Source: Acidobacteriota bacterium
Lineage (GTDB): Bacteria; Acidobacteriota; Vicinamibacteria; Vicinamibacterales; UBA8438
DNA: 64,000 nucleotides
Direction of reading: 5' to 3'
NCBI GenBank assembly: GCA_002712885.1
Contig: PAUN01000021.1
Location: 45,804-109,803, forward strand
The stretch's first letter is position 1, and the number at the start of each line of letters is the position of its first letter. The notes beneath the pieces were generated by a model, which saw only the letters and a program-made list of their open reading frames with translations, was not told the origin of the DNA and did no database searches. Of the stretch, positions 10,238 through 63,431 are shown piece by piece. The position numbers and the translations under genes are program-made.

Positions 10238-10342
10238 GGTTTTCTGACGAGGCGTCCGTCTGGCGGCGTTGCTTCGTCGGTCACAGCCCACCTGGCTGCT
10301 CCCTCCTCACGCCTGACCAGACAGACGTCTCGTCAGAAAACC
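10238..10342 (+). repeat. A-type ~105-bp palindromic intergenic repeat, full copy A3 (opposite genomic orientation to A2/A4)
   Basis: GGTTTTCTGACGAGGCGTCCGTCTGGCGGCGTTGCTTCGTCGGTCACAGCCCACCTGGCTG...CCAGACAGACGTCTCGTCAGAAAACC. It starts at the base immediately after the TAA stop at 10235-10237. Confidence 0.85.
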
Positions 10343-10492
10343 CCCGCGGACGTTTTGCGGCATTGCCAGCCCGTGGACGTCCAGCCTCGAGCACCAACTG
10401 GGCGTCGGCAATGTCGTGTCGTCATGCGTGTTCTCGGAAGACGACGCCACGCACCGGCAACCACCGCGCAGCGCCCACCGACACGTGCTTGC

Positions 10493-11404: not shown

Positions 11405-11457
11405 CGGATGCGTGAACACGGAACTACTCCAAGCGACGAGTGGTGTATCGCTCCGCG

Positions 11458-17803: not shown

Positions 17804-20068
17804 GTGGTCCAGGTCTGCCCTCTTTCGGCGCGTGTGCCGGGGCGACTCCCCGCCCTTCTTGTCGCGTTATGCATGTCGTCCGGCCCGGCGCTGGTCCCAG
17901 CCGCCGAAGCGGGTCAGACGGTTCGAACCGGTAGCGCTGACGCCACCCTCAGACTCCCCGAACCCACGTACCCGAACGTGGTCTCTCTGTTCACCTCTGG
18001 CGACTACTCGGCCGCCCTTGCCGGCCTGGTCCGTGCCATCGGCGACACCACGCCTGAACCCCTGGACGCCCTGGTGCTGCGGGCGACAATTCTGAATTCA
18101 GCCAGGCAGTGGGCGGAGGCGGACGTTGCGTGGCGACAGGTCATCGACCGGGAGGTGTGGATGCGCACCTTCTCACGACGCGCGCTGGTCGCGAGCATGG
18201 CGGCTCGGGGCGAACCGACGCTGGCGACGCCGATCCTGTCAGAACTGCACGGCTCGGACCCAATACGTCATCTGGACCTCACGCTTGACGTCGCCGAGGC
18301 GCATCTCGCGCGAGACGAGTTCGACCGCGCGTCCGTCCTGTTTCGCCAGGCTCTCTCACAGCAGCGGCGCGGCGCGATGGCCGATCGAGCGCGGCTCGGG
18401 CTGGCCCGCGCCCAAGAGCGCGCCGGAGATCTGAGTGGCGCGATCGCCACGCTGCGCGAAACCCAGCTCGAACACCGGACGGGTGCCGGCTATGCCGAGG
18501 CTCGATCGGCCGAGCGCCGTCTGCGCGAGCGGGACGGCGCGCTACCCGCCCCGTTCACCGCCAGCCAGTACCGCACGTTGACGGGGCGCCTCCGCGGGTA
18601 TTCGCGCTACGCCGAAGCGGCCGAGATCATCGACGCCTGGCGGGCCGTGGCACCGGACGCCGAGGCCCGTCTCGACGTCGAGCTGATCGGTGTGCTCTAC
18701 GATAGCCGTGCGAACCACGAGGCGGTCGCACAGTGTGCCGCCTTCGCCTCGCGCCATTCGTCGAGTCCGCTCGTACCGGGCGTCAAGCTGACCGAGTTTC
18801 GGCTGGCAGTCCGGATGGGGAACACCGGCGCGGCCCGGCGCCTCGGGCTCCGCCTGTTCGACGGCGGCGTGCCTGGAGCCACGGCGGAGCAACAGTTCAG
18901 TGCCGGTGAACTGCTCGCGGCGTATCTGGTGGCCGTGGGCGACGTGAAGGACGGCCTCGATCTGTATCGTCAACTGTTTCGGCGGGCTCCGGACGCTGAC
19001 GGCCAGCGGATGATGCTGTGGAAGGCGGGGGTCGCCGCGTTGCGAGCCGGTGAGAACGACCGCGCCCTGGTCAACCTTCGCGCCCTGAACCGACGGGGAC
19101 CGACCGGCGACCTGCAGCCGGCCGGACAGTACTGGCAGTCGATCGCCGAAATGCGGACCGGACAGCCGGAAGCCGCGACCCGTGGCTTCCAGTCGCTGGT
19201 CCAGACCCAGCCGTACAACTATTACGGATTGCAGGCCCGCGCGCGGCTGGCGGCACTCGGCGGGGAAGCGGCGGTCCCGGCGCCACCGACCCGTCAGTTT
19301 CCTGTCCTCGCGGTCGAAGAATCCTCCCAGACCAGAGCCGAGTTCAAGGCCGCGATGATACTGGCGCGAGCGGGTCTGGCCGTGGATGCCGCCTGGTATC
19401 TGCGGCGACTGGTCGAACGGCGGCGCGGCGACCGCGGCCTGGCGCTGCTGGCGGCGCGCGCCTCGGCCGAGGCCGGTGACCACCGCGCCGTCGCGCGTCT
19501 CCTGGCGAACAATTTCGCCGACTTTCTGCAGCGCCCGGCCGACGCCCTGCCGGACGACTTCTATGCCCTGGTGTATCCACGCCCGTTCCTCGACGCCGTC
19601 GAACGAGCGGCCGGCGGGCGCGACCTCGACCCGGCGTTCATGTTCTCGTTGATGCGACAGGAGTCGCGGTTCGACCCCAACGCGCGATCGTTCGTCGGCG
19701 CCCTCGGGCTCTTTCAAATCATGCCGTACACAGCGACGGAACTCGGCCCGCGCGCCGGACTCGACGGGCTGGCAGCGGCCGACTTCGAGGATGAAACGGT
19801 GTTGCTCCAACCTCCGGTGAACGCGGCGATAGCGGCCACGCTGGCCGGTGACCTGTTCGCGATGTTTGGCGGCACCCTGGCACCGGTGATCGCCTCCTAC
19901 AATGCGGGCGAGGAGCGGGTGGCGATTTGGTGGGAATCGGCTCGGGACCTGCCCGAGGATCTCTTCGTCGACACCATCCCGTACAGCGAGACCCGTCGGT
20001 TCGTCCGCGAAGTGCTAGCCAACGTGGCCGGTTATCACCGAGTCTACGACGCGGATTCCGTTCCCTAG
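17804..20068 (+). CDS. slt: soluble lytic murein transglycosylase (Slt70-like: superhelical repeat domain + SLT domain)
   Basis: C-terminal SLMRQESRFDPNARSFVGALGLFQIMPYTA and ASYNAGEERV match the SLT catalytic Glu-Ser motif and AYNAG motif. A long alpha-helical, TPR-like N-terminal region precedes them. Confidence 0.8.
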   Translation: MVQVCPLSARVPGRLPALLVALCMSSGPALVPAAEAGQTVRTGSADATLRLPEPTYPNVVSLFTSGDYSAALAGLVRAIGDTTPEPLDALVLRATILNSARQWAEADVAWRQVIDREVWMRTFSRRALVASMAARGEPTLATPILSELHGSDPIRHLDLTLDVAEAHLARDEFDRASVLFRQALSQQRRGAMADRARLGLARAQERAGDLSGAIATLRETQLEHRTGAGYAEARSAERRLRERDGALPAPFTASQYRTLTGRLRGYSRYAEAAEIIDAWRAVAPDAEARLDVELIGVLYDSRANHEAVAQCAAFASRHSSSPLVPGVKLTEFRLAVRMGNTGAARRLGLRLFDGGVPGATAEQQFSAGELLAAYLVAVGDVKDGLDLYRQLFRRAPDADGQRMMLWKAGVAALRAGENDRALVNLRALNRRGPTGDLQPAGQYWQSIAEMRTGQPEAATRGFQSLVQTQPYNYYGLQARARLAALGGEAAVPAPPTRQFPVLAVEESSQTRAEFKAAMILARAGLAVDAAWYLRRLVERRRGDRGLALLAARASAEAGDHRAVARLLANNFADFLQRPADALPDDFYALVYPRPFLDAVERAAGGRDLDPAFMFSLMRQESRFDPNARSFVGALGLFQIMPYTATELGPRAGLDGLAAADFEDETVLLQPPVNAAIAATLAGDLFAMFGGTLAPVIASYNAGEERVAIWWESARDLPEDLFVDTIPYSETRRFVREVLANVAGYHRVYDADSVP

Positions 20069-20135
20069 GGCAGCCTCTGGTTCCGGCGGAACCCGACCGA
20101 GGAAGGTGCTGAAAACTAGTGGTCTGGTCCACCGT

Positions 20136-20400
20136 CTAAGCGAACGGATCCTCGTCGGCCGACGTCCCGTAAATAGAGGGGACCGGCGCGTCGTTCAAGT
20201 GGAGGTACACGCCAAGCTGGGCCCGGTGGTGGATCAGGTGATTCATCACGAAGCTGCGTATGATTGCGGTCCGCGGCATGCTGAACGTGGTGAGCCCCTT
20301 GTGGAGCAACGTCCATGGTTGCATCTCTCCAAGAAGCCGCCTCGCAGCGGCCACGACCAGTCGACTGAATCGGGAGTCCAGTGTATACAAACGGGAGCGG
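20136..20400 (-). pseudogene. DinB-family (DinB/YfiT-like four-helix bundle) C-terminal remnant
   Basis: Only the C-terminal ~85 aa look genuine (...SMPRTAIIRSFVMNHLIHHRAQLGVYLHLNDAPVPSIYG). The rest of the 180-aa track ORF is read through repeat B1 and the 3' end of ggt2, so roughly 70 N-terminal residues of a normal family member are missing. Confidence 0.5.
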
Positions 20401-20401
20401 A

Positions 20402-20460
20402 GCACTCGGGGTCCCCGCAGAGCGGTCGCGTGGGGTTCGGGGCGCAGCCCCGTCTCAGTG
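20402..20460 (-). repeat. B-type intergenic repeat module, copy B1
   Basis: GCACTCGGGGTCCCCGCAGAGCGGTCGCGTGGGGTTCGGGGCGCAGCCCCG is about 90 percent identical to 43926-43970. It ends at the base before the TGA stop of ggt2 (20461). Confidence 0.75.
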
Positions 20461-22173
20461 TCAGAACCCGATAGCCGAGCTTGTTCGCCGTCGATCTTCA
20501 GCCGCCTCCAGCATGTCGTCTTCCGCGTTGTAGAGGATGGCCGACACCGCACCCTGCACACCGATCTCGGCCATGCGGTGGCCGCGCCGTCCGAGCAGCG
20601 CCAGGGTATCCGGCGAGAGCCCCCACCGCTCATACCGTGTCTCGTCCGGCAGCCACTGGTGATGCAACCGGGGCGCATCCACCGCCTCTTGAATGTTCAT
20701 CCCAAAATCGACCACGTTCAGAATCGTCATCAGCACCGTGTTGATGATGGTCCGACCACCGGGGCTGCCGGTGACCATGACCAATTGACCCTCGCGCGCC
20801 ACGATGGTCGGGGTCATGCTGGATAGCATCCGCTTCCCAGGCTCAGCCAGGTTGGGGCCGGTGCCGATCAGCCCCGTCTGGGTCGTCAGCCCGGGGGCCG
20901 CATTGAAGTCGCCCATCTCATTGTTCAGCAGGAAGCCCGCGCCCGGCACGGTGATCTTCGACCCATACCCCTGCTCCAACGTGTAGGTGAGCGACACTGC
21001 GTTGCGCGCGCCATCGACCACCGACAGATGCGTCGTCTCCTCGCTCTCGACCGGCCAGGAGAAGCTGTCAGGTGACGACACCGAGGCCCGGTCGGAATCG
21101 ATGGTCAGCCGGAGCTCGGCGGCGTAGTCCTTCGATATCAATTGATCGATCGGCATGCTGGTGTTGAAGGCCGGGTCGCCCAGATTCTGAGCCCGGTCGG
21201 CGAAGGCCCGCCGCATCGCCTCGATGATGAGATGGATGGTCGCCGCCGACCCGCTGCCGGACGCAGCCAAGTCATAGCCTTCCAGCACATTGAGCATCTG
21301 GATGAGAGCCAGCCCGCCGGAGCTCACCGGCGGCATGGAGATGATGTCGTAACCGCGGTAGGTGCCTGTCATCGGCGCGCGACGCACCGCCCGGTACCCG
21401 GCCAAGTCGGCCTGGGTCATGATGCCGCCGTTGGCCGCCATCTCGGCGGCAAGGAGTTCGGCCGTCTCACCGGTGTAGACCCCGGCCGGTCCCTGAAGCG
21501 CGACCCGTGAGAGTGTCCGCGCCAGATCCGGCTGGCGAAGCGTCTCGCCGACCCGGTAGGGCTGACCCTGGTTCGAAAACTGCGCCACTGACGCGGGGTA
21601 GTCGACCATCCGCGGCAGGACGGCGGCCAATGAGCGAGCCAAAGAGTCCCTCACCACGAACCCTTCGCGCGCCAACGTCATCGCCGGCTCAACCAGACGC
21701 TCCCACGACAGCGACCCGTGTTCTGACCAGGCCTGATGCAATCCCGCCACGGTCCCCGGCACGCCGACGGCCAGATGGCTGTTGTGGTGCACGCGCCGGT
21801 CGTACTCGCCCCCACGCATGAACATCGTGGACGTAGCCGCGGCCGGTGCGGTTTCTCGAAAGTCATACGCCACCGCGTCGCCCACGGCCGGCCGGTAGAC
21901 CAGAAATCCGCCCCCGCCGATATTGCCGGCCGTGGGATAGGTGACCGCCAACGCAAACGCAGTCGCGACCGCCGCGTCCACGGCGTTGCCCCCGTCCCGC
22001 AACACCTGATCGCCGACGCGCGAGGCCAGTGGGTCCTGCGACACCACCATCGCCTGCCGAGCACGGATCGGGCGCGTGCTCCCCACCAGAGGCGTCGGCG
22101 CGAGCGCCACCCACGCGACCGCAGCGGCTCCGACGATGCCGCAGGTGAACGCTCGTTGCTTCCGGATAGTCAT
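20461..22173 (-). CDS. ggt: gamma-glutamyltransferase (paralogue 2, canonical GGT type, secreted)
   Basis: GDQVLRDGGNAVDAAVATAFALAVTYPTAGNIGGGGF, ETTHLSVVDGARNAVSLTYTLEQGYGS (autoprocessing Thr), LLNNEMGDF and GSPGGRTIINTV are present. Start moved to MTIRKQRAF (ATG 22173). Confidence 0.88.
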   Translation of the reverse strand: MTIRKQRAFTCGIVGAAAVAWVALAPTPLVGSTRPIRARQAMVVSQDPLASRVGDQVLRDGGNAVDAAVATAFALAVTYPTAGNIGGGGFLVYRPAVGDAVAYDFRETAPAAATSTMFMRGGEYDRRVHHNSHLAVGVPGTVAGLHQAWSEHGSLSWERLVEPAMTLAREGFVVRDSLARSLAAVLPRMVDYPASVAQFSNQGQPYRVGETLRQPDLARTLSRVALQGPAGVYTGETAELLAAEMAANGGIMTQADLAGYRAVRRAPMTGTYRGYDIISMPPVSSGGLALIQMLNVLEGYDLAASGSGSAATIHLIIEAMRRAFADRAQNLGDPAFNTSMPIDQLISKDYAAELRLTIDSDRASVSSPDSFSWPVESEETTHLSVVDGARNAVSLTYTLEQGYGSKITVPGAGFLLNNEMGDFNAAPGLTTQTGLIGTGPNLAEPGKRMLSSMTPTIVAREGQLVMVTGSPGGRTIINTVLMTILNVVDFGMNIQEAVDAPRLHHQWLPDETRYERWGLSPDTLALLGRRGHRMAEIGVQGAVSAILYNAEDDMLEAAEDRRRTSSAIGF

Positions 22174-39017: not shown

Positions 39018-39359
39018 TCAGAGGAGCGCCTCGGTCAGCATCTCTTCGTTGAAGCCGACCAATACGGTCCTTCCCGCTCGAATCAGTGGCGCCCTGAGAT
39101 TGCCGGTAGGACCAAGCATGGCTCCGACGGCATCGGCCGAGACGCTACCGCTCACCGAAAAGCGGTCGACCTTCTTCCCTTTGGCCACGATGAGGGTCGA
39201 GGCCTCCGCCAACAGCGCCCTGGCATCCATCTCCTGTAACTTTCTGCTCGCCGAAACGGTCTCGGCGATACGAACACGGTTGGCCTCCATGAACCTGGCG
39301 GCTCGCGCGCAACTCGTTCAACCATTCCGGTGGTAGTACCAGTCGACGGTTCGGGTCAT
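39018..39359 (-). CDS. ArsC/Spx/YffB-family thioredoxin-fold protein with in-frame TGA at the first redox Cys (candidate selenoprotein, U-x-x-C)
   Basis: ATG 39359 is preceded by AAGGAG (39367-39372, 7-nt spacer). One frame gives MTRTVDWYYHRNG-TGA(39320-39318)-TSCARAARFMEANRVRIAETV... and continues to the stop at 39018 (113 codons). The C-terminal part (LRAPLIRAGRTVLVGFNEE) is ArsC-family-like. The track reports only the 90-aa piece starting at ATG 39290. Confidence 0.65.
39276..39317 (-). promoter_or_regulatory. SECIS-like stem-loop immediately 3' of the in-frame UGA
   Basis: mRNA sequence is UGA-ACGAGUUGCGCGCGAGCCGCCAGGUUCAUGGAGGCCAACCGU. Lower stems are ACG/CGU and GUUG/CAAC; the upper stem is GCCGCC/GGAGGC with one G.A mismatch. 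The 8-nt apical loop AGGUUCAU has its GGU 23-25 nt after the UGA. Confidence 0.45.
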
Positions 39360-39440
39360 CGAAGGGCTCCTTTCGTCTCGTCCTCGTTCTCGGCGCTCTG
39401 GCCGTTCGCGCACCGATGAGTGCGGTAGAACCTGTCGCGG

Positions 39441-41249
39441 TCAGTCAAGCGCATGGACCTCGAGCGCAGCCCCAAGGATAAGCGCGCCCCCGCGATCGTC
39501 GGCGCCATTGACGGCGGTACGGTCGAGATAGTAGCGACGCGTCGGTCCGGCGCCGGTACTAATGCAGACGTCCACGAGCGTGCCGTCGATCCGGACGTGG
39601 GCCAGGAGCGCCCGCCAAGCGCGCTCGACCACAGGCCGGTACGACGGATCCAGCCACCCGTGTCGGATGCCCCTGGCCATCGCGGTCAACGTGAGCGCCG
39701 TCACACTCGCCTCGCGATAGCTGCCGGGCATATCCACGACCTGCGACCACATCCCGTCCGGCGCCTGGTACCGCCGCATGGCGACCATCTGGCGGCGATA
39801 GATGTCTAGGAGAGCCCGCCGGTCCGGGTGGTCATCAGGTAGACCGGTGAGGACTTCGGCCAGCCCCAGCGCGGCAAAGCCGTTGCCCCGGCCCCACGCC
39901 ACCGGGGCATCGGGGGCGTGGTGGAACACGCCGCCCGGCTGCTGCAGGCGACGGGCGTAGTTGGTAATCAGACGGGTCGCCGCGGCAAGACCCGCGGCGT
40001 CGAGCGCACGGGCGGCGACAACCGTCCCGAGGAACATGTCGTCGGTCCACCCAGAGCCGTGCTCCGGCACCCCTGGAGACGTCTCAGCCGCGCCAAGGGC
40101 AACCGCCGCGTCCGCCAGACGGGACGCCGCCTCGCCGTCATCGCCCGCCAGTTTGGCGATCTCGGCGAAGACCATCGCGCCGGCGAGGGACGCGAAACGG
40201 ACCGTCTCGCCGACCAATGGTTGCTCGCCCCGCAGCCAGGGACGAACCTGACCGAGCACCTTGTCCCGCCAGGACGCATCCCCAGTCACGTCAGCCAGCT
40301 TCAGCGTGTGTACCCAGGCCACGGCCGGGATGTAGCTCATGCCAACACTCCCGGGATAGCGTTGGGCGAACAGACGCGCGATCGGAAGCGGGTCACGCGT
40401 CACCCGTTCGGTGATGGCCTCATGCAGCGGCGACTGACGGGCAACCTGCGCGAGCCGGTCGCGCAACAGACCTATCACGGCCGCGCCGTCGGACTCGCTC
40501 GCCGTCACGTGGATCGTCTCGACCGGACCGAGACCAGACTCGGTGCCGCGTACAGCCAGAGCCCGCGCCAGCGCGCCGCCCGGCCGCGCCTCGTCGGCCT
40601 CCGCTCCCGGACGCGCGCGAAAGCCGTTGCCGGCGCTGACCACAACGACAAGGTCGGGCGCCTGATAAGTCACCCAGCGCCACGTGTAGTGAATCTCCGG
40701 CCTGTCAGGTGCGTCGAAGAAGCCCTCGACCGGTGGAAAGCGATGCGGAGGTTGCGGACCGGTCCTCCCCGGATGCGCCAAAGGCAGTGCGCTGAGGGTC
40801 CAGCTGGCCCGAGCGTTGTCTGGCGCCGACGTCTTGAACCACCGTACCGCGTCAAGCACAATCCGTGTGCTGCGAGTGTCTCCGTCAAGGCCCCCGACAA
40901 GGACCAGCCGGCGATGTGTATCCTCGGGGTCAAACGACGCACCGTTCTCGAGCGTGAGCAGCGGCGTCTCATCACGGGTCACCCCGCCCGCGCTGACGAA
41001 TCGCGGTTCTCCGGCCAGCGCTGCGAGGGCGGACAGCTCCGTGCGCAGTGCGTCGTCGCCAGGCTGCGCGATCGCCACGGACCCGGTCCAGGCGCCAGAC
41101 AGCACGGTGCACCCAGCGGTCAGCGTTGCCACCTTGGCGACCGTGGCCAGCGTAGCCCGCCCGGCCACCGCGGCCCGGGTAGACGGCGACCATCTCGCCG
41201 GTCCGTCGTTCCCGCACGCCGCCGCATTCCCGTCGCTCGCGCGCATCAT
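39441..41249 (-). CDS. glycoside hydrolase family 88/105-like protein (unsaturated glucuronyl/rhamnogalacturonyl hydrolase fold) with ~300-aa N-terminal extension
   Basis: C-terminal half (GWTDDMFLG, WGRGNGFAALGLAEVL, APDGMWSQVVD, SVTALTLTAMARG, DDRGGALILGA) resembles the (alpha/alpha)6 YteR/UGL family. The N-terminal domain is unassigned and the start is uncertain (ATG 41249/41246). Confidence 0.6.
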   Translation of the reverse strand: MMRASDGNAAACGNDGPARWSPSTRAAVAGRATLATVAKVATLTAGCTVLSGAWTGSVAIAQPGDDALRTELSALAALAGEPRFVSAGGVTRDETPLLTLENGASFDPEDTHRRLVLVGGLDGDTRSTRIVLDAVRWFKTSAPDNARASWTLSALPLAHPGRTGPQPPHRFPPVEGFFDAPDRPEIHYTWRWVTYQAPDLVVVVSAGNGFRARPGAEADEARPGGALARALAVRGTESGLGPVETIHVTASESDGAAVIGLLRDRLAQVARQSPLHEAITERVTRDPLPIARLFAQRYPGSVGMSYIPAVAWVHTLKLADVTGDASWRDKVLGQVRPWLRGEQPLVGETVRFASLAGAMVFAEIAKLAGDDGEAASRLADAAVALGAAETSPGVPEHGSGWTDDMFLGTVVAARALDAAGLAAATRLITNYARRLQQPGGVFHHAPDAPVAWGRGNGFAALGLAEVLTGLPDDHPDRRALLDIYRRQMVAMRRYQAPDGMWSQVVDMPGSYREASVTALTLTAMARGIRHGWLDPSYRPVVERAWRALLAHVRIDGTLVDVCISTGAGPTRRYYLDRTAVNGADDRGGALILGAALEVHALD

Positions 41250-41485
41250 CTCGGCCGAACGATACCCGATCCGCGCCCTGAACGCTCGGCGCACGTGTCC
41301 CGTGTCAGAGCTACGATGACCCTTTCGAGGGGAGCCGCTCGGGCGGCGAACCGGCAAGAAGTCTCTCTTGTGAAACAGGCTCACTGGTCCGGATTAAATT
41401 GACGACGCACAGTCAAGGAACAACAGTCGAGGACACACTCCCAAGTTTGTCTCTCCGCGGCGGTTTCCCCTTGGAGTGAACGGTT

Positions 41486-50673: not shown

Positions 50674-52082
50674 TCCTCGTCTCCCGGTCTCAGGAACGAC
50701 CGACCAGCTGGTGCCGGCGGCTGGATCGTCAACACGAGCCGGTTCTCCTTGGTGAAATAGGTCCGCGCAACCCGTTGCACGTCCTCCTTCGTAATGTTCA
50801 TGAAGATGTCGAACTCGGCGTCCGCGGTCGTGATGTCGTCATGGATGACGGCCGCATGGGACAGATGGCTGGCCTTCTGCTCGACCGTAGCTCGGGTAAA
50901 GACATAGTCGCGCGCGAACTGATTCTTGGCCTGCTGCAGTTCCCGGTCGGTGATGAATTCATTCTTCAACCGGTCGAGCTGGTCAATCAGCGCCTGCTCG
51001 GACTCGACCGGCGTACGACCCGGCTGCACCAGGGATACGGCGTAGAACAGGTTCGGGTCGTCGATGATGGTGCCCTGCCCGAACGCCGAGACCGCGAGCT
51101 GATCGTCATACACGAGCCGCTGGAAGATCCGCGAGCTCTGTCCGTCAGACAGCACCTTCACAGCGATGTGCAGCGGATAGGCATCAGGGTGCCCATCGTA
51201 GGTGATATGGTGCGCCACAATCACGGCCGGGAGCGGCCAGTTTTCGGTCTGAGTCAGCGTGATGCGTCGTTCACCGGTCTGTGGCGGCTCGCGCGGAATG
51301 TCGCGTGGCACCGGATGGGCGGCTTTCGGCACCCGATCGAAGTACTGCTTCACTAAGGCCAGCGCTTCGCTCGACTCGAAGTCGCCCACCAGCACCAGCG
51401 TGGCATTCTCCGGCACGTAGTAGGTGTCGAAGAACTCCTGGACGTCGTCCACCGACGCCGCCTCAAGGTCAGCCATGCTCCCAATCGGCGTGTGCTTGTA
51501 GGGATGAACCGAATACGCCTGGTCGTACATGATCTCGGAGAGGAGTCCGAACGGCGTATCCTCGTACCGCCAGCGACGCTCCTCCTTGACCACCTGACGT
51601 TCCGACTCGAACGTCTCCTTGTCGATGCGCAGCGTGGCCATCCGATCCGCCTCGAGCCAGAGAATCAGTGGGAGATACTGTGACGGCACCGTCTCGACGT
51701 AGGTCGTCGCGTCCTCCGTCGTATAGGCGTTGCCGTCTCCCCCGACCCGCGAGATCAGCGTCAAGTGCGAGTCTGACAACACATTGTGGGACCCCTTGAA
51801 CATCAGATGCTCGAACAGATGCGCAAACCCGGTGCGCCCCGGCCGCTCGTTCTTGGACCCGACGTGATACACCAGCTCCGAACGCACAATCGGAGTCGAG
51901 TGGTCCTCGGACAAGACCACCGTCAATCCATTGTCGAGCTTGTGAATTTCGTAGTCGAATTTCGGCGGCCTGACCGCCGTCTCCACCGTGGCCGAGAAGA
52001 CGACCATCCCGGCCACAGCTGAGACCGCGCAGACCCACGGAAGCCGACCCGACGCGAGACGCATGATGGGACGCATGATCAA
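50670..52082 (-). CDS. M16 (pitrilysin) family zinc peptidase, catalytic subunit
   Basis: GFAHLFEHLMFKG is the inverted zinc motif HxxEH, and a downstream Glu region (EERRWRYED) is present. Signal/anchor at the N-terminus. Confidence 0.85.
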   Translation of the reverse strand: MIMRPIMRLASGRLPWVCAVSAVAGMVVFSATVETAVRPPKFDYEIHKLDNGLTVVLSEDHSTPIVRSELVYHVGSKNERPGRTGFAHLFEHLMFKGSHNVLSDSHLTLISRVGGDGNAYTTEDATTYVETVPSQYLPLILWLEADRMATLRIDKETFESERQVVKEERRWRYEDTPFGLLSEIMYDQAYSVHPYKHTPIGSMADLEAASVDDVQEFFDTYYVPENATLVLVGDFESSEALALVKQYFDRVPKAAHPVPRDIPREPPQTGERRITLTQTENWPLPAVIVAHHITYDGHPDAYPLHIAVKVLSDGQSSRIFQRLVYDDQLAVSAFGQGTIIDDPNLFYAVSLVQPGRTPVESEQALIDQLDRLKNEFITDRELQQAKNQFARDYVFTRATVEQKASHLSHAAVIHDDITTADAEFDIFMNITKEDVQRVARTYFTKENRLVLTIQPPAPAGRSFLRPGDEE

Positions 52083-52203
52083 ATTATCGCATAGCTACGA
52101 GTGGAGCCGCCGGGCGGGCGCCTGGGCTAGCGAAGTGCCTGAACCCAGCACCCAGGGAAAAGCGGGCGCGTGGCTGATCCCGGACCCGGCGGTAAAACTC
52201 CGC

Positions 52204-52234
52204 GGCCGCGTGGGATTCGGGGCGCAGCCCCGTC
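52204..52234 (-). repeat. B-type module, partial copy B3
   Basis: GGCCGCGTGGGATTCGGGGCGCAGCCCCGTC matches the core of B1. Confidence 0.65.
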
Positions 52235-52240
52235 AAAGGA

Positions 52241-52302
52241 ATACCCAGGCGGGATATGACCGACGCAGCAACGCCGCCACATGGACGCCCCGCCTGGAGA
52301 CC
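52241..52302 (-). repeat. A-type repeat, stop-proximal half (A6, diverged)
   Basis: ATACCCAGGCGGGATATGACCGACGCAGCAACGCCGCCACATGGACGCCCCGCCTGGAGACC aligns with the inner hairpin plus stop-proximal arm of A4. It ends in the TAG of the 52302-53117 gene. Confidence 0.7.
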
Positions 52303-53117
52303 TACTTGCTCAGGAACCTGAACCCGACCATGGTGAACGAGGTGGGTTCCAGATCAAAAAGGTCGGCGTCGATGCGTCGTTCCCGCGAGAGAAACACCTC
52401 GCCGGCACCAGCGCGCCCGGGGAATCGTGCGCCAATCTCGATCCGGCCGCCGAACTGGTCCCTACGGTCACGCTCGGTGCCGTCCACGGACACCAACGTC
52501 ACCTCCCCCCCGGCGATAAGCGATACGCGACGATTCAAGGTTCGGTCGGCCCGAATGCTCCCACCCATTTCCCCGGTGTAGTCCACGAACGAGCGTCGGA
52601 CCGTCTTGAGCAGACGATACCCGATGTCGAAGTCCCATCCAGCCACGACCAGCGGAGTGGTGAACTGGAACCCCAGCATGTTCCATGCGATCGCAAAGTC
52701 CTTGTCGCGGTCGCTCAGATGGCGTGACACGTGGTGAAAAGTCAAGCCCAGTTCAGCATCGGGGATGACAGTGCGCCACCACGCGGACAAGTCCACCGTG
52801 TAGTTACCCTGATTGGGGTCGATGGCCCGAATCTGGCGACCAAAAATGGTCTCGACGTTGACCAGTAGGTTCCCCCGAAAGTACCGGAGGTCGAACACAT
52901 CCAGGTCTCCGCCAAAGTCTGTATCCCAGACGAAATTGTCGTTGTCTGAATTGAGGCGCAGGGCGTTCAGGTGGAATCGGTAATTGGTCAGGAACCCTGG
53001 GCTCGGCGGTGTCTGAGCCGCGGTGGAGGCGGCGCTACTGGTCTGGGCGACCACCCCCGAAGAGTTCACGACCAGTGCGCCGAGGCAGAGGGCGACGACA
53101 GCGACAGCGCGAGACAT
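52302..53117 (-). CDS. putative outer-membrane beta-barrel protein
   Basis: Signal peptide MSRAVAVVALCLGALVVNSSGVVAQ, alternating strand pattern, and an aromatic-rich C-terminus (...MVGFRFLSK). Confidence 0.55.
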   Translation of the reverse strand: MSRAVAVVALCLGALVVNSSGVVAQTSSAASTAAQTPPSPGFLTNYRFHLNALRLNSDNDNFVWDTDFGGDLDVFDLRYFRGNLLVNVETIFGRQIRAIDPNQGNYTVDLSAWWRTVIPDAELGLTFHHVSRHLSDRDKDFAIAWNMLGFQFTTPLVVAGWDFDIGYRLLKTVRRSFVDYTGEMGGSIRADRTLNRRVSLIAGGEVTLVSVDGTERDRRDQFGGRIEIGARFPGRAGAGEVFLSRERRIDADLFDLEPTSFTMVGFRFLSK

Positions 53118-53151
53118 GGGCGTAGTGTGCCGATGTGATGAGCGGTCGCGG

Positions 53152-54204
53152 TTATTCAGTGGATGATCGATGGGTCTCGAGCTCGGCCAGGCGGCGTTCC
53201 AGCGCGGCCACCTTCTTTCGCAATGCCGGCAGCATCTGGAAGGACGCCGCCGCCTTTCGCCACGCTCGATTGTCGATGGCGGGCAAGCCCGAAATGAAGG
53301 AGCCTGACGGGACCGAGTTGGTAATCCCTGTCTGCCCCGTGGCACGGGTCCCTTCGCCGATGGTCACGTGTGAGTTGACCCCAACCTGCCCAGCCAGCAC
53401 GACTGAGTCTTCGACGGTGGTGCTGCCCGCAATGCCCACCTGCGCCGCCAGCAACGTGTTACGCCCGACCCGAACGCCGTGCCCAATCTGAACGAGATTA
53501 TCAATCTTGGCACCCGCGCGGATCCGAGTTTCACCGATCGCGGGACGATCGATGGCCACGTGGGCGCCAATCTCCACATCCGCCTCGAGCACGACATCGC
53601 CGAGCTGCGGGATTTTCTCGTGGGTGCCGTCGGGCCGCTGGGCGAACCCGTACCCGTCGCTCCCTATCACCGCCGCGTTTTGCACGATGACCCGATCCCC
53701 GATAACCACCCGCTCCCGCACGGCCACATGCGAATGGATGACACAGTCGGCGCCGATGGCGGCGCCCGGGCCGATGTGCACGCCGGGGTGCACGATCGTC
53801 CGTGAGCCCACCGACGCGCCGGACCCGATCGACACGAACGGGCCGATCGACACACCCTCCCCGAGGCTCACGTCCGGGGCGATGCTCGTCGCCGGGTCCA
53901 CACCGGGAGCGGGTCTGATCTCGTTGCCAAACAATCCGACCGCACGCGCCACCGCGAGAGATGGCGTCGCGGTGCGCAACATCGGACACGGTGCGGCCTC
54001 GGCGTCCTCACCCAGGATCACCGCCGTCGCACGGGTCGAACGCAGCGCGCTCACATAGCGGGAACTGGTAAGAAAGGTGAGGTCCCCGGGTTGCGCAACA
54101 TCGATCCCGGTCAGCCGATGGACATCGACCTCACCATCGCCGTCGAGCCTGCACGCTAGGCGCTCGGCCACTTCGCTGAGCTTCAAATCGGCGCAGTATA
54201 GCAT
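53152..54204 (-). CDS. lpxD: UDP-3-O-acylglucosamine N-acyltransferase
   Basis: The N-terminal uridine-binding domain (LSEVAERLACRLDGDGEV...PGDLTFL) is followed by a long left-handed beta-helix of hexapeptide repeats and a C-terminal helix. Confidence 0.88.
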   Translation of the reverse strand: MLYCADLKLSEVAERLACRLDGDGEVDVHRLTGIDVAQPGDLTFLTSSRYVSALRSTRATAVILGEDAEAAPCPMLRTATPSLAVARAVGLFGNEIRPAPGVDPATSIAPDVSLGEGVSIGPFVSIGSGASVGSRTIVHPGVHIGPGAAIGADCVIHSHVAVRERVVIGDRVIVQNAAVIGSDGYGFAQRPDGTHEKIPQLGDVVLEADVEIGAHVAIDRPAIGETRIRAGAKIDNLVQIGHGVRVGRNTLLAAQVGIAGSTTVEDSVVLAGQVGVNSHVTIGEGTRATGQTGITNSVPSGSFISGLPAIDNRAWRKAAASFQMLPALRKKVAALERRLAELETHRSSTE

Positions 54205-58360: not shown

Positions 58361-58939
58361 ATGACTGTGCGCCCGAAGAACGCCCGGCCGGCCACGCTCA
58401 CGCTGACGTGTGCGTTGGCCCTGTTTCTCGGCACCGGGGCATACACGCTGTTCGGTGCGCAGCCGGTGGCGCCGGACGCACCGGGAGCCAGCGCCGAGAT
58501 CGAGACGGATCCAGGGCCGGTCGACCCGATGGCGCAGCCTATCGACTTCAGTCACGCGCACCACGTGACCGAAGTCGGGATCGACTGTCAGTTCTGCCAC
58601 GCGTACGCGCGCCGCGGACCAGTCGCCGGCATTCCGTCGGTACAACGGTGTGCCGGATGCCACCAAACGGTGCTCAGCGAACAGCCAGAAATCGTCAAAG
58701 TGCTGGAGTACTGGGACAACAAGGAACCGATCCCCTGGCTCAGGGTCCATGACTTGCCGGACCACGTGCGGTTCTCGCACAAACCGCACATCCGAGCCGG
58801 CGTCAGCTGCGCCGACTGCCACGGGAACGTGGCCGCTATGGAAGCGGCCGTGCAGGTCGAGTCGCTCAGTATGGGTTGGTGTCTCGATTGCCACAAGGAA
58901 CGCGAGGCCAGCCGCGATTGTCTCGCATGCCACTATTAA
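58361..58939 (+). CDS. actA: alternative complex III subunit ActA (pentahaem cytochrome c)
   Basis: Five CxxCH motifs are present (CQFCH, CAGCH, CADCH, CLDCH, CLACH) with an N-terminal anchor. It is the first gene of the actABCDE order. Confidence 0.85.
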   Translation: MTVRPKNARPATLTLTCALALFLGTGAYTLFGAQPVAPDAPGASAEIETDPGPVDPMAQPIDFSHAHHVTEVGIDCQFCHAYARRGPVAGIPSVQRCAGCHQTVLSEQPEIVKVLEYWDNKEPIPWLRVHDLPDHVRFSHKPHIRAGVSCADCHGNVAAMEAAVQVESLSMGWCLDCHKEREASRDCLACHY

Positions 58940-59024
58940 GTCGCCGCGCCGGCCACAAGCCATCTGCCGGGTCCACGGACCCGTGGCACCAGCGTCGGGC
59001 GCAACTGTTCGGGGGAAGGGTCGC

Positions 59025-62000
59025 GTGAAGCAGGACAACTCATCGCTTGTCGAGGTCGTCGAACGGCGAACGTTCCTGAAGGTCCTAGGCAGCGCCGGAC
59101 CCGCCATGGCGATCTCCGCCTGTTCGCCGGTACCGCCGGAAAAGATCATCCCGTTCGTCACCCCCCCTGAGGACGTCATTCCGGGTGTCGCCACCTGGTA
59201 TGCCAGTGTGTGCGGCGAATGCCCGGCCGGATGCGGCACGCTGGTACGAACCCGTGAAGGTCGCGCAGTGAAGGTGGAGGGCAACCCGGAGCACCCTGTC
59301 AACCGGGGTGGGCTGTGCGTCCGCGGACAGTCATCGCTGCAGGGCCTGTACAACCCGGACCGGATTCCCGGACCGCAACGCCGACGGGTCACCAACGCGG
59401 CCGCGGGCCAGAGCGTGTTGGAGACGTTGCCCTGGGACGATGCCCAGCAGGAATTGATTGACCGGGTACAGACGCTTCGAGACGCGGGCCGCGGGGACCG
59501 GATCGTGGTCATCACGCCCCCACTGACCGGCACGATGGCCGCACTGACGTCGGCCTGGGTGGAGGCCCTCGGCGGGGCCCGCTGGATCCGCTACGAGCCG
59601 TTCGCCTACGAGGCGATCCGTGAGTCCAATCAGCAACTCTTCGGACGTGCGGAGGTGCCGCGTTACGACTTCGCGAACGCCGACTGTCTCATCTCGTTCG
59701 GCGCGGACTTCCTCGAAACGTTCAGTTCTCCCGTCGGTTACGCACGTGATCACGCCGGACAACGCCGTGTCCGCAACGGCGAGAAGGCGCGGTTCGTGCA
59801 GATCGAACCACGTCTCTCCATGACCGGGGCCAGCGCCGACGAGTGGCACGCGGTGTCTCCAGAGACCGAGGGTCTAGTGGCCGCGGCCATGGTCCAGACC
59901 ATCATCGGCGAACAACGCGCGCAAGGGGTGCCCCTGGAGACACAGGCACAGATCGCCGCCCTGGTCGCGTCCACCTCACCTGAGCGTGTTGCGGCCACGT
60001 CCGGGCTGTCAGCCGACACCATTCGCACACTGGCCCGAGAGTTCTCGGACCCGGCACGCGGTCCGGGACGCAGTCTCGCGGTGGGCGGAGGCGTCGGTGT
60101 GTCCGGAACCAATGCGACGGCGGCACAGTCGGCGGTCACACTGCTCAACTATGTCGCAGGCAACATTGGTTCCACCGTCGACTTCGGCGCGGCCTCGACC
60201 CTCGATGCGTCCACTTACGCCGACATGCGGGCACTCGGAGAGTCGATGCGCAGCGGTGCGGTCGAGCTCGCGGTCATCTACAACGTGAATCCGGTTTTCT
60301 CGATGCCGGGCGAGGCCGACTTCGCGGGGGCGCTAGCCGACGTGCCGTTCGTCATCAGCCTGTCGAGCCTGCCGGACGAGACGACCAGGCACTCCGATCT
60401 CCTGCTTCCCACGCACACGCCTCTCGAATCGTGGGGCGACAGCAATCCACAGCGTGGGGTCTACGGACTCCTGCAGCCAACCATGCAGCCGGTCTTCGAC
60501 ACCCGCCATGCCGGCGACCTGATGATCGCGGTGGGGCGAGCGCTGGGGGGCAATACCGCGGCCAATTTTCCGAGGCGGGGCGGGTTCTACCGGTATCTCC
60601 GTGACACATGGGAGGCCATGCAGCCGGTGCCGGAACCGGTGACGGACGCGACCGACGTCGAAGCCGAGACCGCGGCCGAGGAACCCGATTTCGAGTCCTA
60701 CTGGGCCGACGCATTACGTCGAGGCGGCACGACCGTCGCAGTCGCGCCGGTCGCGGTGGAGCTCCGGCCTGGGGTCTTCGAGACCGATCTGGCTGGGGCA
60801 CTGTCGCCGCCAAGCCCGTCATCACGGTCACACGTCTTGGTCGCCTACCCATCGCTGCACTTCTTCGACGGTCGAGGGGCGAATCGTCCCTGGCTCCAGG
60901 AAATTCCGGAACCGTTACTCAAGACCACCTGGGGCACCGGGATCGAAATGACGGCCGAGACGGCGAACGCCATCGGCGCCGAAGAAGGGCAGCTCGTCGC
61001 GGTCGAGTCAGACCATGGGCAGGTGGACGCGAGCGTCCTCATCAACCCTCATCTGGCCAACGGAGTAGTGGCGATGGCGATCGGACAGGGCCACACCCAC
61101 TTCGGACGCTACGCGGATGGTCGAGGGGTGAACCCGATTGCGCTGCTCTCAGCCGAGCCGGAGACCGGTTCGGGTGGGGTGCAATGGACCGGCACCGGCG
61201 TCGACCTGACCGCCCGCGATCTCGCCCGGCCAATTCCACGGCTGCAGCGCGCCTTCGACCAGGAGGGTCGCGAGATGGCCCAATCGGTGTCTCTCGCGGC
61301 CCTGGTGGCCGGCGACGTCCATCCGGAAGAGGCGCACTTCAGCCTGCACGAAGACCACGAGCACCCGGTGCATCGCTGGGGCATGTCCATCGACCTCGAC
61401 GCGTGCAATGGATGCAACGCCTGCGTGGCCGCGTGTTATGCCGAGAACAACGTCCCGGTGATGGGCGCCGACCGTATGCGGCGCGGCCGCACCATGTCGT
61501 GGCTGCGTATCGAGCGCTTCGAGGAGTCGGGCGCCGGCGGCGACGGACCGGACAACCGATTCCTCCCGATGCTGTGCCAGCACTGCGACCACGCGCCCTG
61601 CGAGACGGTCTGTCCTGTCTTCGCCACCTACCACACGGACGAAGGCCTGAACGCGCAGGTCTACAACCGCTGCGTCGGCACCCGTTATTGTGCGAACAAC
61701 TGTCCGTACAAGGTGCGCCGCTTCAACTGGTCCCTTCCGGAATTCGAGGCGCCGCTCAATTTGCAGCTCAACCCGGACGTCACCGGTCGCAGCGACGGCG
61801 TCATGGAGAAATGCACCTTCTGTGTGCAACGCATCCAAGCCGGAAAAGAGACCGCGCGGGACGAAAACCGGTCCGTGCAGGACGGCGACGTGACCACAGC
61901 GTGCGAGCAGAGCTGCCCGGCCCAGGCCATCGTGTTCGGGGACTTGAATGACCCGGGGAGCCGGGTGTCACAGCTGAGTAACGACGCCCGCGGCTACCAC

Positions 62001-62066
62001 GCACTCGCCGAGGTCAACACGCGGTCGGCGGTGACCTATCTGAAGAAAGTCACGCCCGACGCCTGA
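59025..62066 (+). CDS. actB: alternative complex III subunit ActB (fused molybdopterin-oxidoreductase-like B1 + 4Fe-4S ferredoxin B2)
   Basis: Tat motif ERRTFLK follows GTG 59025. CGECPAGCG...GGLCVRGQ is the N-terminal FeS site, and the C-terminal clusters are CNGCNACVAACYAENN, CQHCDHAPCETVCP, CVGTRYCANNCPYKVRRFN and CTFCVQRI. The track ORF start at 58650 overlaps actA and was rejected. Confidence 0.88.
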   Translation: MKQDNSSLVEVVERRTFLKVLGSAGPAMAISACSPVPPEKIIPFVTPPEDVIPGVATWYASVCGECPAGCGTLVRTREGRAVKVEGNPEHPVNRGGLCVRGQSSLQGLYNPDRIPGPQRRRVTNAAAGQSVLETLPWDDAQQELIDRVQTLRDAGRGDRIVVITPPLTGTMAALTSAWVEALGGARWIRYEPFAYEAIRESNQQLFGRAEVPRYDFANADCLISFGADFLETFSSPVGYARDHAGQRRVRNGEKARFVQIEPRLSMTGASADEWHAVSPETEGLVAAAMVQTIIGEQRAQGVPLETQAQIAALVASTSPERVAATSGLSADTIRTLAREFSDPARGPGRSLAVGGGVGVSGTNATAAQSAVTLLNYVAGNIGSTVDFGAASTLDASTYADMRALGESMRSGAVELAVIYNVNPVFSMPGEADFAGALADVPFVISLSSLPDETTRHSDLLLPTHTPLESWGDSNPQRGVYGLLQPTMQPVFDTRHAGDLMIAVGRALGGNTAANFPRRGGFYRYLRDTWEAMQPVPEPVTDATDVEAETAAEEPDFESYWADALRRGGTTVAVAPVAVELRPGVFETDLAGALSPPSPSSRSHVLVAYPSLHFFDGRGANRPWLQEIPEPLLKTTWGTGIEMTAETANAIGAEEGQLVAVESDHGQVDASVLINPHLANGVVAMAIGQGHTHFGRYADGRGVNPIALLSAEPETGSGGVQWTGTGVDLTARDLARPIPRLQRAFDQEGREMAQSVSLAALVAGDVHPEEAHFSLHEDHEHPVHRWGMSIDLDACNGCNACVAACYAENNVPVMGADRMRRGRTMSWLRIERFEESGAGGDGPDNRFLPMLCQHCDHAPCETVCPVFATYHTDEGLNAQVYNRCVGTRYCANNCPYKVRRFNWSLPEFEAPLNLQLNPDVTGRSDGVMEKCTFCVQRIQAGKETARDENRSVQDGDVTTACEQSCPAQAIVFGDLNDPGSRVSQLSNDARGYHALAEVNTRSAVTYLKKVTPDA

Positions 62067-62092
62067 CCGGGCCCCGATCGATACACCGTGTC

Positions 62093-63427: not shown

Positions 63428-63431
63428 CGCC

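What the first reader, a model, noticed from the sequence alone, without database searches (positions are those of the whole stretch)
39018..39359. In-frame TGA at the first Cys of the CxxC motif of an ArsC/Spx/YffB-family gene: candidate U-x-x-C selenoprotein
On the minus strand, ATG 39359 has an AAGGAG Shine-Dalgarno 7 nt upstream. It opens a frame reading MTRTVDWYYHRNG-TGA-TSCARAARFMEANRVRIAETV... The same frame continues without further stops to 39018, giving 113 codons, the normal size for this family.

The TGA (39320-39318) falls on the column where E. coli YffB, as I recall it, has its first redox Cys. Compare YffB [22 protein letters not shown] with WYYHRNG-U-TSC-ARAARFMEANRV here.

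The ORF track reports only the 90-aa piece from ATG 39290. That piece has a weak ribosome-binding site and would lack strand beta1 and the whole active site. Directly 3' of the TGA the mRNA can form a SECIS-like hairpin (39276-39317). ArsC-like selenoproteins are an established but rare class, and automated callers would truncate this gene.
Basis: partly seen in the sequence, partly recalled or inferred. Interest (0 to 1): 0.8.

Follow-up and report, generated by a model that had tools for sequence, protein, structure and literature searches.

The report
Selenocysteine-coding ArsC/Spx-like redox gene, mis-called truncated

Summary
On the minus strand an AAGGAG ribosome-binding site, ATG 39359, TGA 39320-39318 and an open frame to the stop at 39020-39018 give a 113-codon gene. 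With U read as C, the protein passes NCBI's curated model NF041106, "ArsC family (seleno)protein" (108.5 bits, cutoff 85). A 2026 review lists this UxxC family as a selenoprotein family first reported from ocean metagenomes in 2008.

Comparative evidence is decisive. All 91 related loci examined, from Acidobacteriota, Gammaproteobacteria, Myxococcota, Spirochaetales, Gemmatimonadota and Binatia, have TGA in exactly this column, while their true terminators vary (TGA 53, TAG 29, TAA 9). The 13 codons before the TGA are conserved. The internal Met used by ORF callers exists in only 19 of 91. Cys-type homologues carry TGT or TGC there.

A 7-bp hairpin 15 nt downstream (39302-39283, loop GGUUCA) meets the published bacterial SECIS criteria. 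Across the family it shows covariation and strong synonymous-codon constraint, which is relaxed in Cys forms.

U-T-S-C aligns on the C-T-S-C redox switch of Spx. The substrate is unknown. The Sec machinery genes (selA, selB, selC, selD) are not in the window and could not be checked. Verdict: a well-supported, ordinary member of a known family.

The parts
39367..39372 (-). Shine-Dalgarno AAGGAG, 7 nt upstream of the start codon
   Evidence: Read directly. AAAGGAG is conserved in the 10 close relatives, while the sequence further upstream diverges.
39018..39359 (-). Full selenoprotein gene: 113 codons (ATG 39359, Sec-TGA at codon 14) plus terminator TGA 39020-39018
   Evidence: Translation. NF041106 scores 108.5 bits against a cutoff of 85, covering residues 5-107 and profile positions 1-106 of 107.
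39318..39320 (-). In-frame TGA read as selenocysteine (U14), first residue of the U-T-S-C motif
   Evidence: TGA sits in this column in 91 of 91 loci, while terminators are TGA 53, TAG 29, TAA 9. Cys homologues have TGT or TGC here. The column aligns on Spx Cys10.
39309..39311 (-). TGC codon for Cys17, the presumed resolving Cys of UxxC
   Evidence: T16 and G17 of alignment A3 are invariant. The C is present in every homologue.
39321..39359 (-). 13 N-terminal codons (MTRTVDWYYHRNG) encoding strand beta1, missed by ORF callers
   Evidence: The DWYYHRxG motif is conserved upstream of the TGA in all loci, with a start codon 12-15 codons upstream in nearly all. Only synonymous changes separate the window from close relatives here. 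It forms beta1 in the model.
39283..39302 (-). SECIS mini-hairpin: 5' arm 39302-39296 (GCCGCCA), loop 39295-39290 (GGUUCA), 3' arm 39289-39283 (UGGAGGC). There is one G.A mismatch, and the element starts 15 nt after the UGA.
   Evidence: In the family, 91.8% of cells are paired against 26-40% when partners are slid, and no shuffle of 500 reaches the observed covariation. Loop G is present in 78 of 81 and UU in 81 of 81. Codon use is Ser UCC 70/70, Lys AAG 63/63, Arg AGG 13/13, Leu YUG 71/71. The window hairpin folds at -8.0 kcal/mol. It meets the bSECIS criteria quoted.
39288..39290 (-). Internal ATG (Met24) that ORF callers take as the start; it lies in the SECIS loop/stem junction
   Evidence: A Met at this position occurs in only 19 of 91 loci. 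In 41 loci the first Met after U is 67 codons downstream.

Best explanation
Window 39359-39018 (minus strand) encodes a 113-residue thioredoxin-fold protein of the ArsC/Spx/YffB superfamily, subfamily NCBIfam NF041106 'ArsC family (seleno)protein'. Its codon 14, UGA, is recoded to selenocysteine.

Mechanism of recoding (inferred from the standard bacterial pathway): translation starts at ATG 39359. When the ribosome reaches UGA 39320-39318, the hairpin 39302-39283, with a G-G-U-U apical loop 22 nt downstream, binds SelB-GTP-Sec-tRNASec. Sec is inserted in place of termination, and translation continues to the true UGA stop at 39020-39018.

Mechanism of the protein (inferred): Sec14 sits at the N-cap of helix alpha1, next to Cys17 and the invariant LGPTGNLRAP loop. 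This is the position of the nucleophilic Cys of CxxC oxidoreductases and of the Spx redox switch. The protein most likely cycles between selenol/thiol and selenenylsulfide while reducing a disulfide or another oxidised substrate. The substrate is unknown.

Shown here: the gene structure, family membership, TGA conservation, SECIS conservation and the fold. Inferred: actual Sec insertion, SelB dependence and the redox chemistry.
For: - Curated family model NF041106 is passed at 108.5 bits against a cutoff of 85.
- A 2026 review lists NF041106 as a UxxC selenoprotein family, citing the 2008 GOS study.
- TGA is in the same column in 91 of 91 loci from at least 6 phylum-level groups, with varied terminators and no extra stops.
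- Database entries with 'W' in that column are TGA at the DNA level.
- Cys-form homologues have TGT or TGC there.
- Ten syntenic close relatives show only synonymous changes between the ATG and the TGA.
- The SECIS is a 7-bp helix, 91.8% paired against 26-40% when slid, with covariation exceeding 500 of 500 shuffles. The wobble pair 27:42 switches between GC, CG, GU, UG, AU and UA.
- Synonymous constraint is extreme: UCC 70/70, AAG 63/63, AGG 13/13, YUG 71/71. It is relaxed in 5 Cys forms.
- The published bSECIS criteria are met: 6-nt loop, G in loop positions 1-2, 22-nt spacing, -8.0 kcal/mol.
- TGA is a normal terminator in this genome, ending 16 of 41 predicted genes including this one.
- The family profile matches Spx structures at E about 1e-9, with U-T-S-C on C10-T-S-C13.
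- The AF2 model of a 58%-identical Cys form has pLDDT 91.8 and places the column at the alpha1 N-cap. The best PDB fold matches are Spx, ArsC-family proteins and YffB.
Against: - No selA, selB, selD or tRNA-Sec is in the 64-kb window or in about 1 Mb of held family loci, so Sec-decoding capacity of this organism is not shown.
- The window's own hairpin has a G.A mismatch (3+3 bp), and its single-sequence fold is not better than shuffles (z = -0.49).
- No Rfam family matches the region.
- Nucleotide conservation in the SECIS overlaps a conserved peptide (A-S-K-F-L-E-A), so part of it is protein-driven.
- The Cys-form control has only 5 sequences.
- Pfam ArsC falls just below its gathering score (23.2 against 24).
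- Structural similarity to Spx and ArsC is only TM about 0.55.
- There is no experimental evidence for any member, and no conserved neighbour points to a substrate.
Confidence: 0.92

Rival explanations
1. The UGA is decoded by something other than Sec-tRNASec. One candidate is a SelC*-type tRNA-Cys, which uses SelB and a SECIS but inserts Cys. Another is an opal-suppressor 'allo-tRNA'. Either would give a full-length protein without selenium.
For: Such tRNAs are described. Allo-tRNAs occur in Acidobacteria, and selC* tRNA-Cys occurs in some anaerobic Firmicutes, Thermodesulfobacteria, Nitrospirae and Proteobacteria (PMC5389517). Sequence data alone cannot distinguish Sec from Cys insertion at a SECIS-dependent UGA.
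Against: - selC* was reported in anaerobes of other phyla, not in marine Acidobacteriota or the aerobic Gammaproteobacteria that carry this family.
- A Cys codon would achieve the same result without any machinery, and Cys forms do exist. Retention of TGA in 91 of 91 loci therefore argues for a Sec-specific benefit.
- General suppression is unlikely, because TGA ends 16 of 41 genes in the window.
Confidence: 0.04
2. There is no recoding. The real product is the 90-aa protein from ATG 39290, as gene callers report, and the upstream ATG...TGA is a chance 13-codon mini-ORF.
For: This is the only ORF listed mechanically. The same 90-aa call appears in many public data sets.
Against: - The Met is present in only 19 of 91 loci, and in 41 loci the next Met is 67 codons downstream.
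- The upstream 13 codons are conserved at the protein level across phyla and change only synonymously among close relatives.
- The 90-aa piece lacks beta1 and the whole U/CxxC site. It also scores lower on Pfam ArsC, 17.6 against 23.2 bits.
- The ATG lies inside the SECIS hairpin.
Confidence: 0.02
3. The gene is a decaying pseudogene. A TGC/TGT (Cys) to TGA nonsense mutation, or an assembly error, inactivated an ordinary ArsC-like gene.
For: TGA is one mutation away from TGC or TGT, and Cys forms of the family exist.
Against: - The same TGA is found in more than 20 independent assemblies of the same lineage and in 80 species-level genomes.
- The internal stop is never TAG or TAA, there are no frameshifts or second stops, and full-length conservation extends downstream, with LGPTGNLRAP invariant.
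Confidence: 0.01

Closest known systems
NCBIfam NF041106 'ArsC_rel_Se_1, ArsC family (seleno)protein', equivalent to 'Arsenate reductase-like protein, UxxC' in the 2026 selenoproteome review and to 'Arsenate reductase 2 (cd03032), UxxC' of Zhang & Gladyshev 2008
   Same: - Full-length match above the curated cutoff.
- UxxC motif near the N-terminus.
- Marine metagenome origin.
- Sec and Cys forms coexist.
   Different: Nothing of substance; this is a plain member. Equating NF041106 with 'Arsenate reductase 2' of the 2008 table rests on the review citing that paper for NF041106, not on a sequence comparison with the GOS reads.
Spx / MgsR redox-switch regulators of Firmicutes (PDB 1z3e, 3gfk, 6gho; TIGR01617)
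   Same: - Best solved relatives by profile (E about 1e-9) and by fold.
- The C10-T-S-C13 switch of Spx aligns residue for residue with U14-T-S-C17.
- A shared G-x-L-R-x-P loop.
   Different: - TIGR01617 scores 28.5 bits against a cutoff of 75, so it is not a member.
- TM is only about 0.55.
- The central subdomain, helical in Spx, contains a beta-hairpin at residues 55-68 in the model.
- It uses Sec in place of Cys and occurs in Gram-negative marine lineages.
- There is no evidence of RNA polymerase binding.
   Same: Same superfamily. The profile hit has E = 6e-4 and the fold match has TM 0.55. The active-site Cys is in the same register relative to the LEAN motif.
   Different: YffB has a single Cys (C-D-T-I), not CxxC. 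Pairwise similarity is not significant (E = 4.7).
Glutaredoxin-coupled arsenate reductase ArsC (R773 type; TIGR00014; the 'ArsC 1, UxxS' selenoprotein family)
   Same: Same Pfam family neighbourhood (PF03960, 23.2 bits) and same fold class. A Sec form of true ArsC is also known from marine metagenomes.
   Different: True ArsC has a C/U-x-x-S motif and this protein has U-x-x-C. TIGR00014 is not among the NCBIfam hits. Arsenate reductase activity is therefore not implied.
Bacterial SECIS consensus (bSECISearch model; E. coli fdhF-type hairpin)
   Same: - Stem-loop immediately 3' of the UGA within the coding region.
- Small apical loop with G followed by G/U in the first positions.
- 16-37 nt spacing.
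- MFE of -7.5 kcal/mol or lower.
   Different: There is no sequence similarity to the E. coli elements and no Rfam model. The window's copy has an internal G.A mismatch where most relatives have U-A.

Membership tests
NCBIfam NF041106 ArsC family (seleno)protein | Whole-protein score at or above the curated cutoff (85 bits) | tested here: met
   108.5 bits, E = 2.5e-31, covering residues 5-107 and profile positions 1-106 of 107, with U read as C.
NCBIfam NF041106 ArsC family (seleno)protein | U/C-x-x-C motif at the N-terminal active site | tested here: met
   U14-T-S-C17 in the window. G-[U/C]-T-x-C in the homologues.
Bacterial selenoprotein (Sec-recoded gene) | In-frame UGA conserved among orthologues and aligned with Cys in other homologues | tested here: met
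   TGA in 91 of 91 loci, and TGT or TGC in 5 of 5 Cys forms.
Bacterial selenoprotein (Sec-recoded gene) | Coding conservation on both sides of the UGA | tested here: met
   DWYYHRxG upstream and TxCxxAxxFLEA...LGPTGNLRAP downstream. Changes upstream are synonymous only.
Bacterial selenoprotein (Sec-recoded gene) | bSECIS hairpin 3' of the UGA: loop 3-9 nt, stem 4-16 bp, G in the first two loop positions, 16-37 nt spacing, MFE of -7.5 kcal/mol or lower | tested here: met
   Criteria are quoted. The window has a 6-nt loop (GGUUCA), 22-nt spacing, -8.0 kcal/mol and a 3+3 bp stem around a G.A mismatch. The family consensus is 7 bp with covariation.
Bacterial selenoprotein (Sec-recoded gene) | selA, selB, selC (tRNA-Sec) and selD present in the same genome | not testable with these tools
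   None is in the window or in the held loci. Acidobacteria as a phylum do have selenoproteins.
Bacterial selenoprotein (Sec-recoded gene) | Selenium physically present in the protein (75Se labelling or mass spectrometry) | not testable with these tools
   This requires an experiment.
Pfam PF03960 ArsC family | Score at or above the gathering threshold (24 bits) | tested here: not met
   23.2 bits, E = 8.9e-5, just under the threshold. Superfamily-level homology is still supported by profile hits to Spx, ArsC-related proteins and YffB in the PDB and by the fold search.
Spx/MgsR regulators (TIGR01617) | Score at or above the cutoff (75 bits) | tested here: not met
   28.5 bits.
Spx/MgsR regulators (TIGR01617) | N-terminal CxxC redox switch | tested here: met
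   U-T-S-C aligns on Spx C10-T-S-C13.
Spx/MgsR regulators (TIGR01617) | Helical central domain that contacts the RNA polymerase alpha C-terminal domain | tested here: inconclusive
   The model shows a beta-hairpin at residues 55-68 in this region and TM of only about 0.55 to the Spx complexes. Interface residues were not examined.
Arsenate reductase ArsC (R773 type, TIGR00014) | Match to the equivalog model and a C-x-x-S active site | tested here: not met
   TIGR00014 is absent from the NCBIfam hits at E up to 1. The motif here is UxxC, whereas the Sec form of true ArsC is UxxS.
YffB | Significant sequence similarity to E. coli YffB | tested here: not met
   BLASTP E = 4.7. Only a profile-level hit to P. 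aeruginosa YffB, E = 6e-4.

The most novel reading that the evidence does not exclude
The NF041106 family may not be a generic disulfide reductase. It could be a selenium-dependent counterpart of the Spx redox switch, meaning a Sec-based redox sensor or regulator. Alternatively it could be an enzyme with a new small-molecule substrate bound by the invariant LGPTGNLRAP loop and the family-specific beta-hairpin. At least 595 species-level genomes carry a relative of the family, mostly marine bacterial MAGs. The evidence does not exclude this reading: the U-T-S-C motif matches Spx C-T-S-C exactly, the insert subdomain differs from all solved relatives, and no member has been characterised.
Probability: 0.08. 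Interest if true: 0.6.

Novelty: new member of a known kind. Interest (0 to 1): 0.25.

Why it matters
The practical value is annotation. This gene and hundreds of orthologues sit in public databases in three wrong forms: as 90-aa N-terminally truncated proteins, as proteins with a spurious Trp at the active site, or under the correct family name but on a truncated sequence. All three lack the catalytic selenocysteine.

The result also marks this marine Vicinamibacteria lineage as a likely Sec user. It provides a cleanly conserved, covarying bacterial SECIS with strong synonymous-codon constraint that could seed a covariance model, since Rfam has none for it.

It does not change what is known about selenoproteins, because the family has been catalogued since 2008 and has a curated NCBI model.

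Tried and rejected
- **RNAalifold on the 81-sequence alignment.** It kept only 3 inner pairs and a spurious 2-bp helix. I replaced it with an explicit 7-bp structure tested by pair counts.
- **Single-sequence folding of the window.** It gave no significance (z = -0.49).
- **Rfam.** Nothing at gathering or at permissive thresholds.
- **Search for Sec machinery.** No tRNA at all in the window. Pfam scans of 30 window proteins found no SelA, SelB or SelD. Because the SelD query was recalled, that negative is weak.
- **Crude scan for other TGA-interrupted genes in the window.** No convincing candidate. Its GC3 filter also missed the target gene, so it is insensitive.
- **Gene-neighbourhood clustering over 80 loci.** The large clusters were antisense or alternative-frame ORFs overlapping the gene itself. 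No real neighbour is shared by more than 5 loci, so no substrate can be inferred by association.
- **Structure prediction with my U-to-C edited sequence.** I used the 58%-identical natural Cys form P0002 as a proxy.
- **Arsenate reductase function.** Rejected as the default reading because the motif is UxxC and not UxxS, and there is no TIGR00014 hit.
- **Spx-type regulator membership.** Rejected because it scores far below the cutoff.
- **Global TGA reassignment.** Rejected because TGA terminates 16 of 41 window genes.

Full report
**1. The observation**

On the minus strand the sequence reads AAGGAG (39372-39367), a 7-nt spacer, then ATG (39359-39357). Twelve further sense codons follow, then TGA (39320-39318), then ACG AGT TGC and an uninterrupted frame to TGA at 39020-39018. 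The conceptual product is MTRTVDWYYHRNG-U-TSCARAARFMEAN..., 113 residues. The mechanical ORF list contains only the 90-aa piece from ATG 39290, plus a 95-aa antisense ORF.

**2. What family it is**

With U replaced by C, Pfam ArsC (PF03960) scores 23.2 bits, just under its 24-bit threshold. NCBIfam has a dedicated model, NF041106 "ArsC_rel_Se_1, ArsC family (seleno)protein". The protein passes it clearly: 108.5 bits against a cutoff of 85, covering residues 5-107 and profile positions 1-106 of 107. The Spx/MgsR model TIGR01617 scores only 28.5 against 75, and the arsenate reductase equivalog TIGR00014 does not appear.

[quoted passage not shown] That paper's table of ocean-metagenome selenoproteins has "Arsenate reductase 2, cd03032, UxxC", with 42 Sec sequences and 238 Cys homologues. 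It is listed separately from the true-ArsC "UxxS" family. ArsC-like selenoproteins were already counted in genomes in 2006. The kind is therefore known.

**3. Is the TGA really a sense codon?**

A protein search found 2039 relatives.
- Most are called at exactly 90 aa.
- The full-length ones carry either Cys or "Trp" in the TGA column, and share the N-terminal DWYYHRxG motif.
- The "Trp" is an artefact. The DNA of P0003 has TGA there, so some gene callers read it under genetic code 4.

Ten syntenic close relatives from independent marine assemblies keep the ATG, the TGA and the frame. They share the same GH88 / gene / RsgA / PQQ-propeller / DinB neighbourhood. The only differences from the window between the ATG and the TGA are synonymous, CGG to CGC and AAT to AAC.

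A scan of one genome per species found at least 595 genomes with a relative. The best 80 come from Vicinamibacteria and other Acidobacteriota, Pseudomonadales and other Gammaproteobacteria, Myxococcota, Spirochaetales, Gemmatimonadota and Binatia. Across the 91 loci examined:
- The column holds TGA in 91 of 91.
- The real terminators are TGA 53, TAG 29 and TAA 9.
- A start codon lies 12-15 codons upstream in nearly all.
- There are no second stops or frameshifts.
- The Met that ORF callers use in the window exists in only 19 of 91. In 41 loci the next Met is 67 codons downstream.

Five Cys-type homologues have TGT or TGC in the column. TGA is an ordinary terminator in this genome, ending 16 of 41 predicted genes including this one. 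They also dispose of the pseudogene, sequencing-error, internal-start and reassigned-code rivals.

**4. The SECIS element**

I aligned positions -6 to +68 around the TGA from 81 loci without gaps. This shows a conserved core, GCn UCC AAG UUY nUG GAn GC. It forms a 7-bp helix (columns 25-31 pairing with 38-44) closed by a 6-nt loop, R-G-U-U-Y-N.

Explicit pair counts:
- 91.8% of cells are paired, against 26-40% when the 3' partners are slid by 1-3 columns.
- Five of the 7 pairs show double changes.
- None of 500 shuffles reaches the observed covariation.
- The pair formed by two codon third positions (27:42) is G-C in 24 sequences, C-G in 15, G-U or U-G in 10, and A-U or U-A in 3.

The region also encodes a conserved peptide, so I looked at synonymous choices:

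| Residue | Codons used |
|---|---|
| Ser | UCC in 70 of 70 |
| Lys | AAG in 63 of 63 |
| Arg | the rare AGG in 13 of 13 |
| Leu | CUG or UUG in 71 of 71 |
| Loop G | present in 78 of 81 |
| Loop UU | present in 81 of 81 |

In the five Cys forms these constraints relax. UCG, CGA, AGA, CUC and CUU appear, the loop G is lost in 4 of 5, and 4-7 of 7 pairs remain. Two of them look like remnant SECIS hairpins.

The review states the bacterial SECIS criteria: a loop of 3-9 nt, a stem of 4-16 bp, G in the first two loop positions, 16-37 nt between the UGA and the loop, and MFE of -7.5 kcal/mol or lower. The window's element is 39302-39283, with arms GCCGCCA and UGGAGGC and loop GGUUCA. It has a 6-nt loop starting GG, 22-nt spacing and -8.0 kcal/mol. 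Its stem is 3+3 bp around a G.A mismatch, where most relatives have U-A.

Caveats:
- The single-sequence fold is not better than shuffles.
- RNAalifold alone recovers only the inner 3 pairs.
- Rfam has no matching model.
- The sequences are related, and the Cys control is small.

**5. Fold and active site**

A profile of the family hits solved Spx structures over its full length (E about 1e-9). U-T-S-C aligns on Spx C10-T-S-C13, and the LGPTGNLRAP loop aligns on the Spx G-LLRRP loop. ArsC-related proteins and P. aeruginosa YffB follow (E = 6e-4).

An AlphaFold2 model of the closest natural full-length Cys form (P0002, 58% identical) is confident, with pLDDT 91.8 and pTM 0.85. It shows beta1 at residues 5-10 and alpha1 at 15-26, so the Sec/Cys column sits at the helix N-cap. 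Fold search puts Spx, ArsC-family proteins and YffB on top, but at TM about 0.5-0.57. A beta-hairpin at residues 55-68 occupies part of the region that is helical in Spx.

The column assignment is right but the CxxC analogy belongs to Spx.

**6. Context and limits**

The window is 65% GC. Its closest named genome is a marine Vicinamibacteria MAG, and its exact 90-aa ORF occurs in MAG GCA_003517065.1 and many ocean assemblies.

The window has no tRNA and no SelA, SelB or SelD among 30 scanned proteins. There is no tRNA-Sec or SelD next to the gene in any held locus. No neighbour is conserved across lineages. The organism's Sec machinery therefore remains unverified, and that is the main gap. 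Acidobacteria as a phylum are known to have selenoproteins. A SECIS-dependent Cys-inserting tRNA, or a suppressor allo-tRNA, is a formal alternative that sequence cannot exclude.

**7. Verdict**

This is a Sec-recoded U-x-x-C member of the ArsC/Spx superfamily that gene callers truncate. It is a straightforward member of a family catalogued in 2008 and covered by a curated NCBI model, so the novelty is low. The value lies in correcting the annotation and in a well-resolved SECIS for this family. The biochemical function is uncharacterised. The most likely mechanism is a selenol/thiol to selenenylsulfide redox cycle on a disulfide-type substrate, and this is inferred, not shown.

Noticed in passing
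window 58650-63935 (+): A molybdopterin/4Fe-4S protein (1138 aa, ActB-like), an NrfD-family membrane protein (444 aa) and an ActD protein (167 aa) lie in a row. This looks like an Alternative Complex III gene cluster running off the window end.
   Followed up: no
window 39049-39336 (+): A 95-aa ORF antisense to the selenoprotein gene is a high-GC artefact. Equivalent antisense or alternative-frame ORFs over the gene recur in 25 and 18 of the 80 family loci, and they mimic 'conserved neighbours' in clustering.
   Followed up: yes
window 5035-6468 (+): A class-V aminotransferase (Aminotran_5, the cysteine desulfurase / selenocysteine lyase fold) lies 33 kb from the selenoprotein gene. A role in sulfur or selenium mobilisation is possible but untested.
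   Followed up: no
L093 701-942, L095 690-942, and the P0009 contig (no DNA held): Three of the five Cys-form homologues whose gene neighbourhood was listed are followed directly by a VTT/DedA-domain membrane protein gene. No comparable conserved neighbour exists for the Sec forms.
   Followed up: partly
L001 1501-1848; proteins P0003, P0004, P0006-P0008 and others: About half of the 'full-length' database entries of this family carry Trp at the active site. The codon is TGA (checked for P0003), so gene callers translated these contigs under genetic code 4. This is a systematic artefact that hides selenoproteins.
   Followed up: partly
L092 and L093 (Cys-form genes): Two Cys-form homologues keep 7 of 7 and 6 of 7 pairs of the SECIS helix although the codon is TGT or TGC. 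These look like remnant SECIS elements after a Sec-to-Cys conversion, as described for other families in the 2006 study.
   Followed up: partly
   Followed up: yes
window 39441-41384 (-): The GH88-family gene upstream is 647 aa by the first-start rule, but 599-602 aa in most relatives' gene calls. Only its C-terminal third matches the GH88 profile.
   Followed up: no
window 3790-5035, 10237-11458, 20068-21736, 52082-53152: My GC3-filtered gene map left these stretches of 1.1-1.7 kb without a confident ORF. They were not examined further.
   Followed up: no
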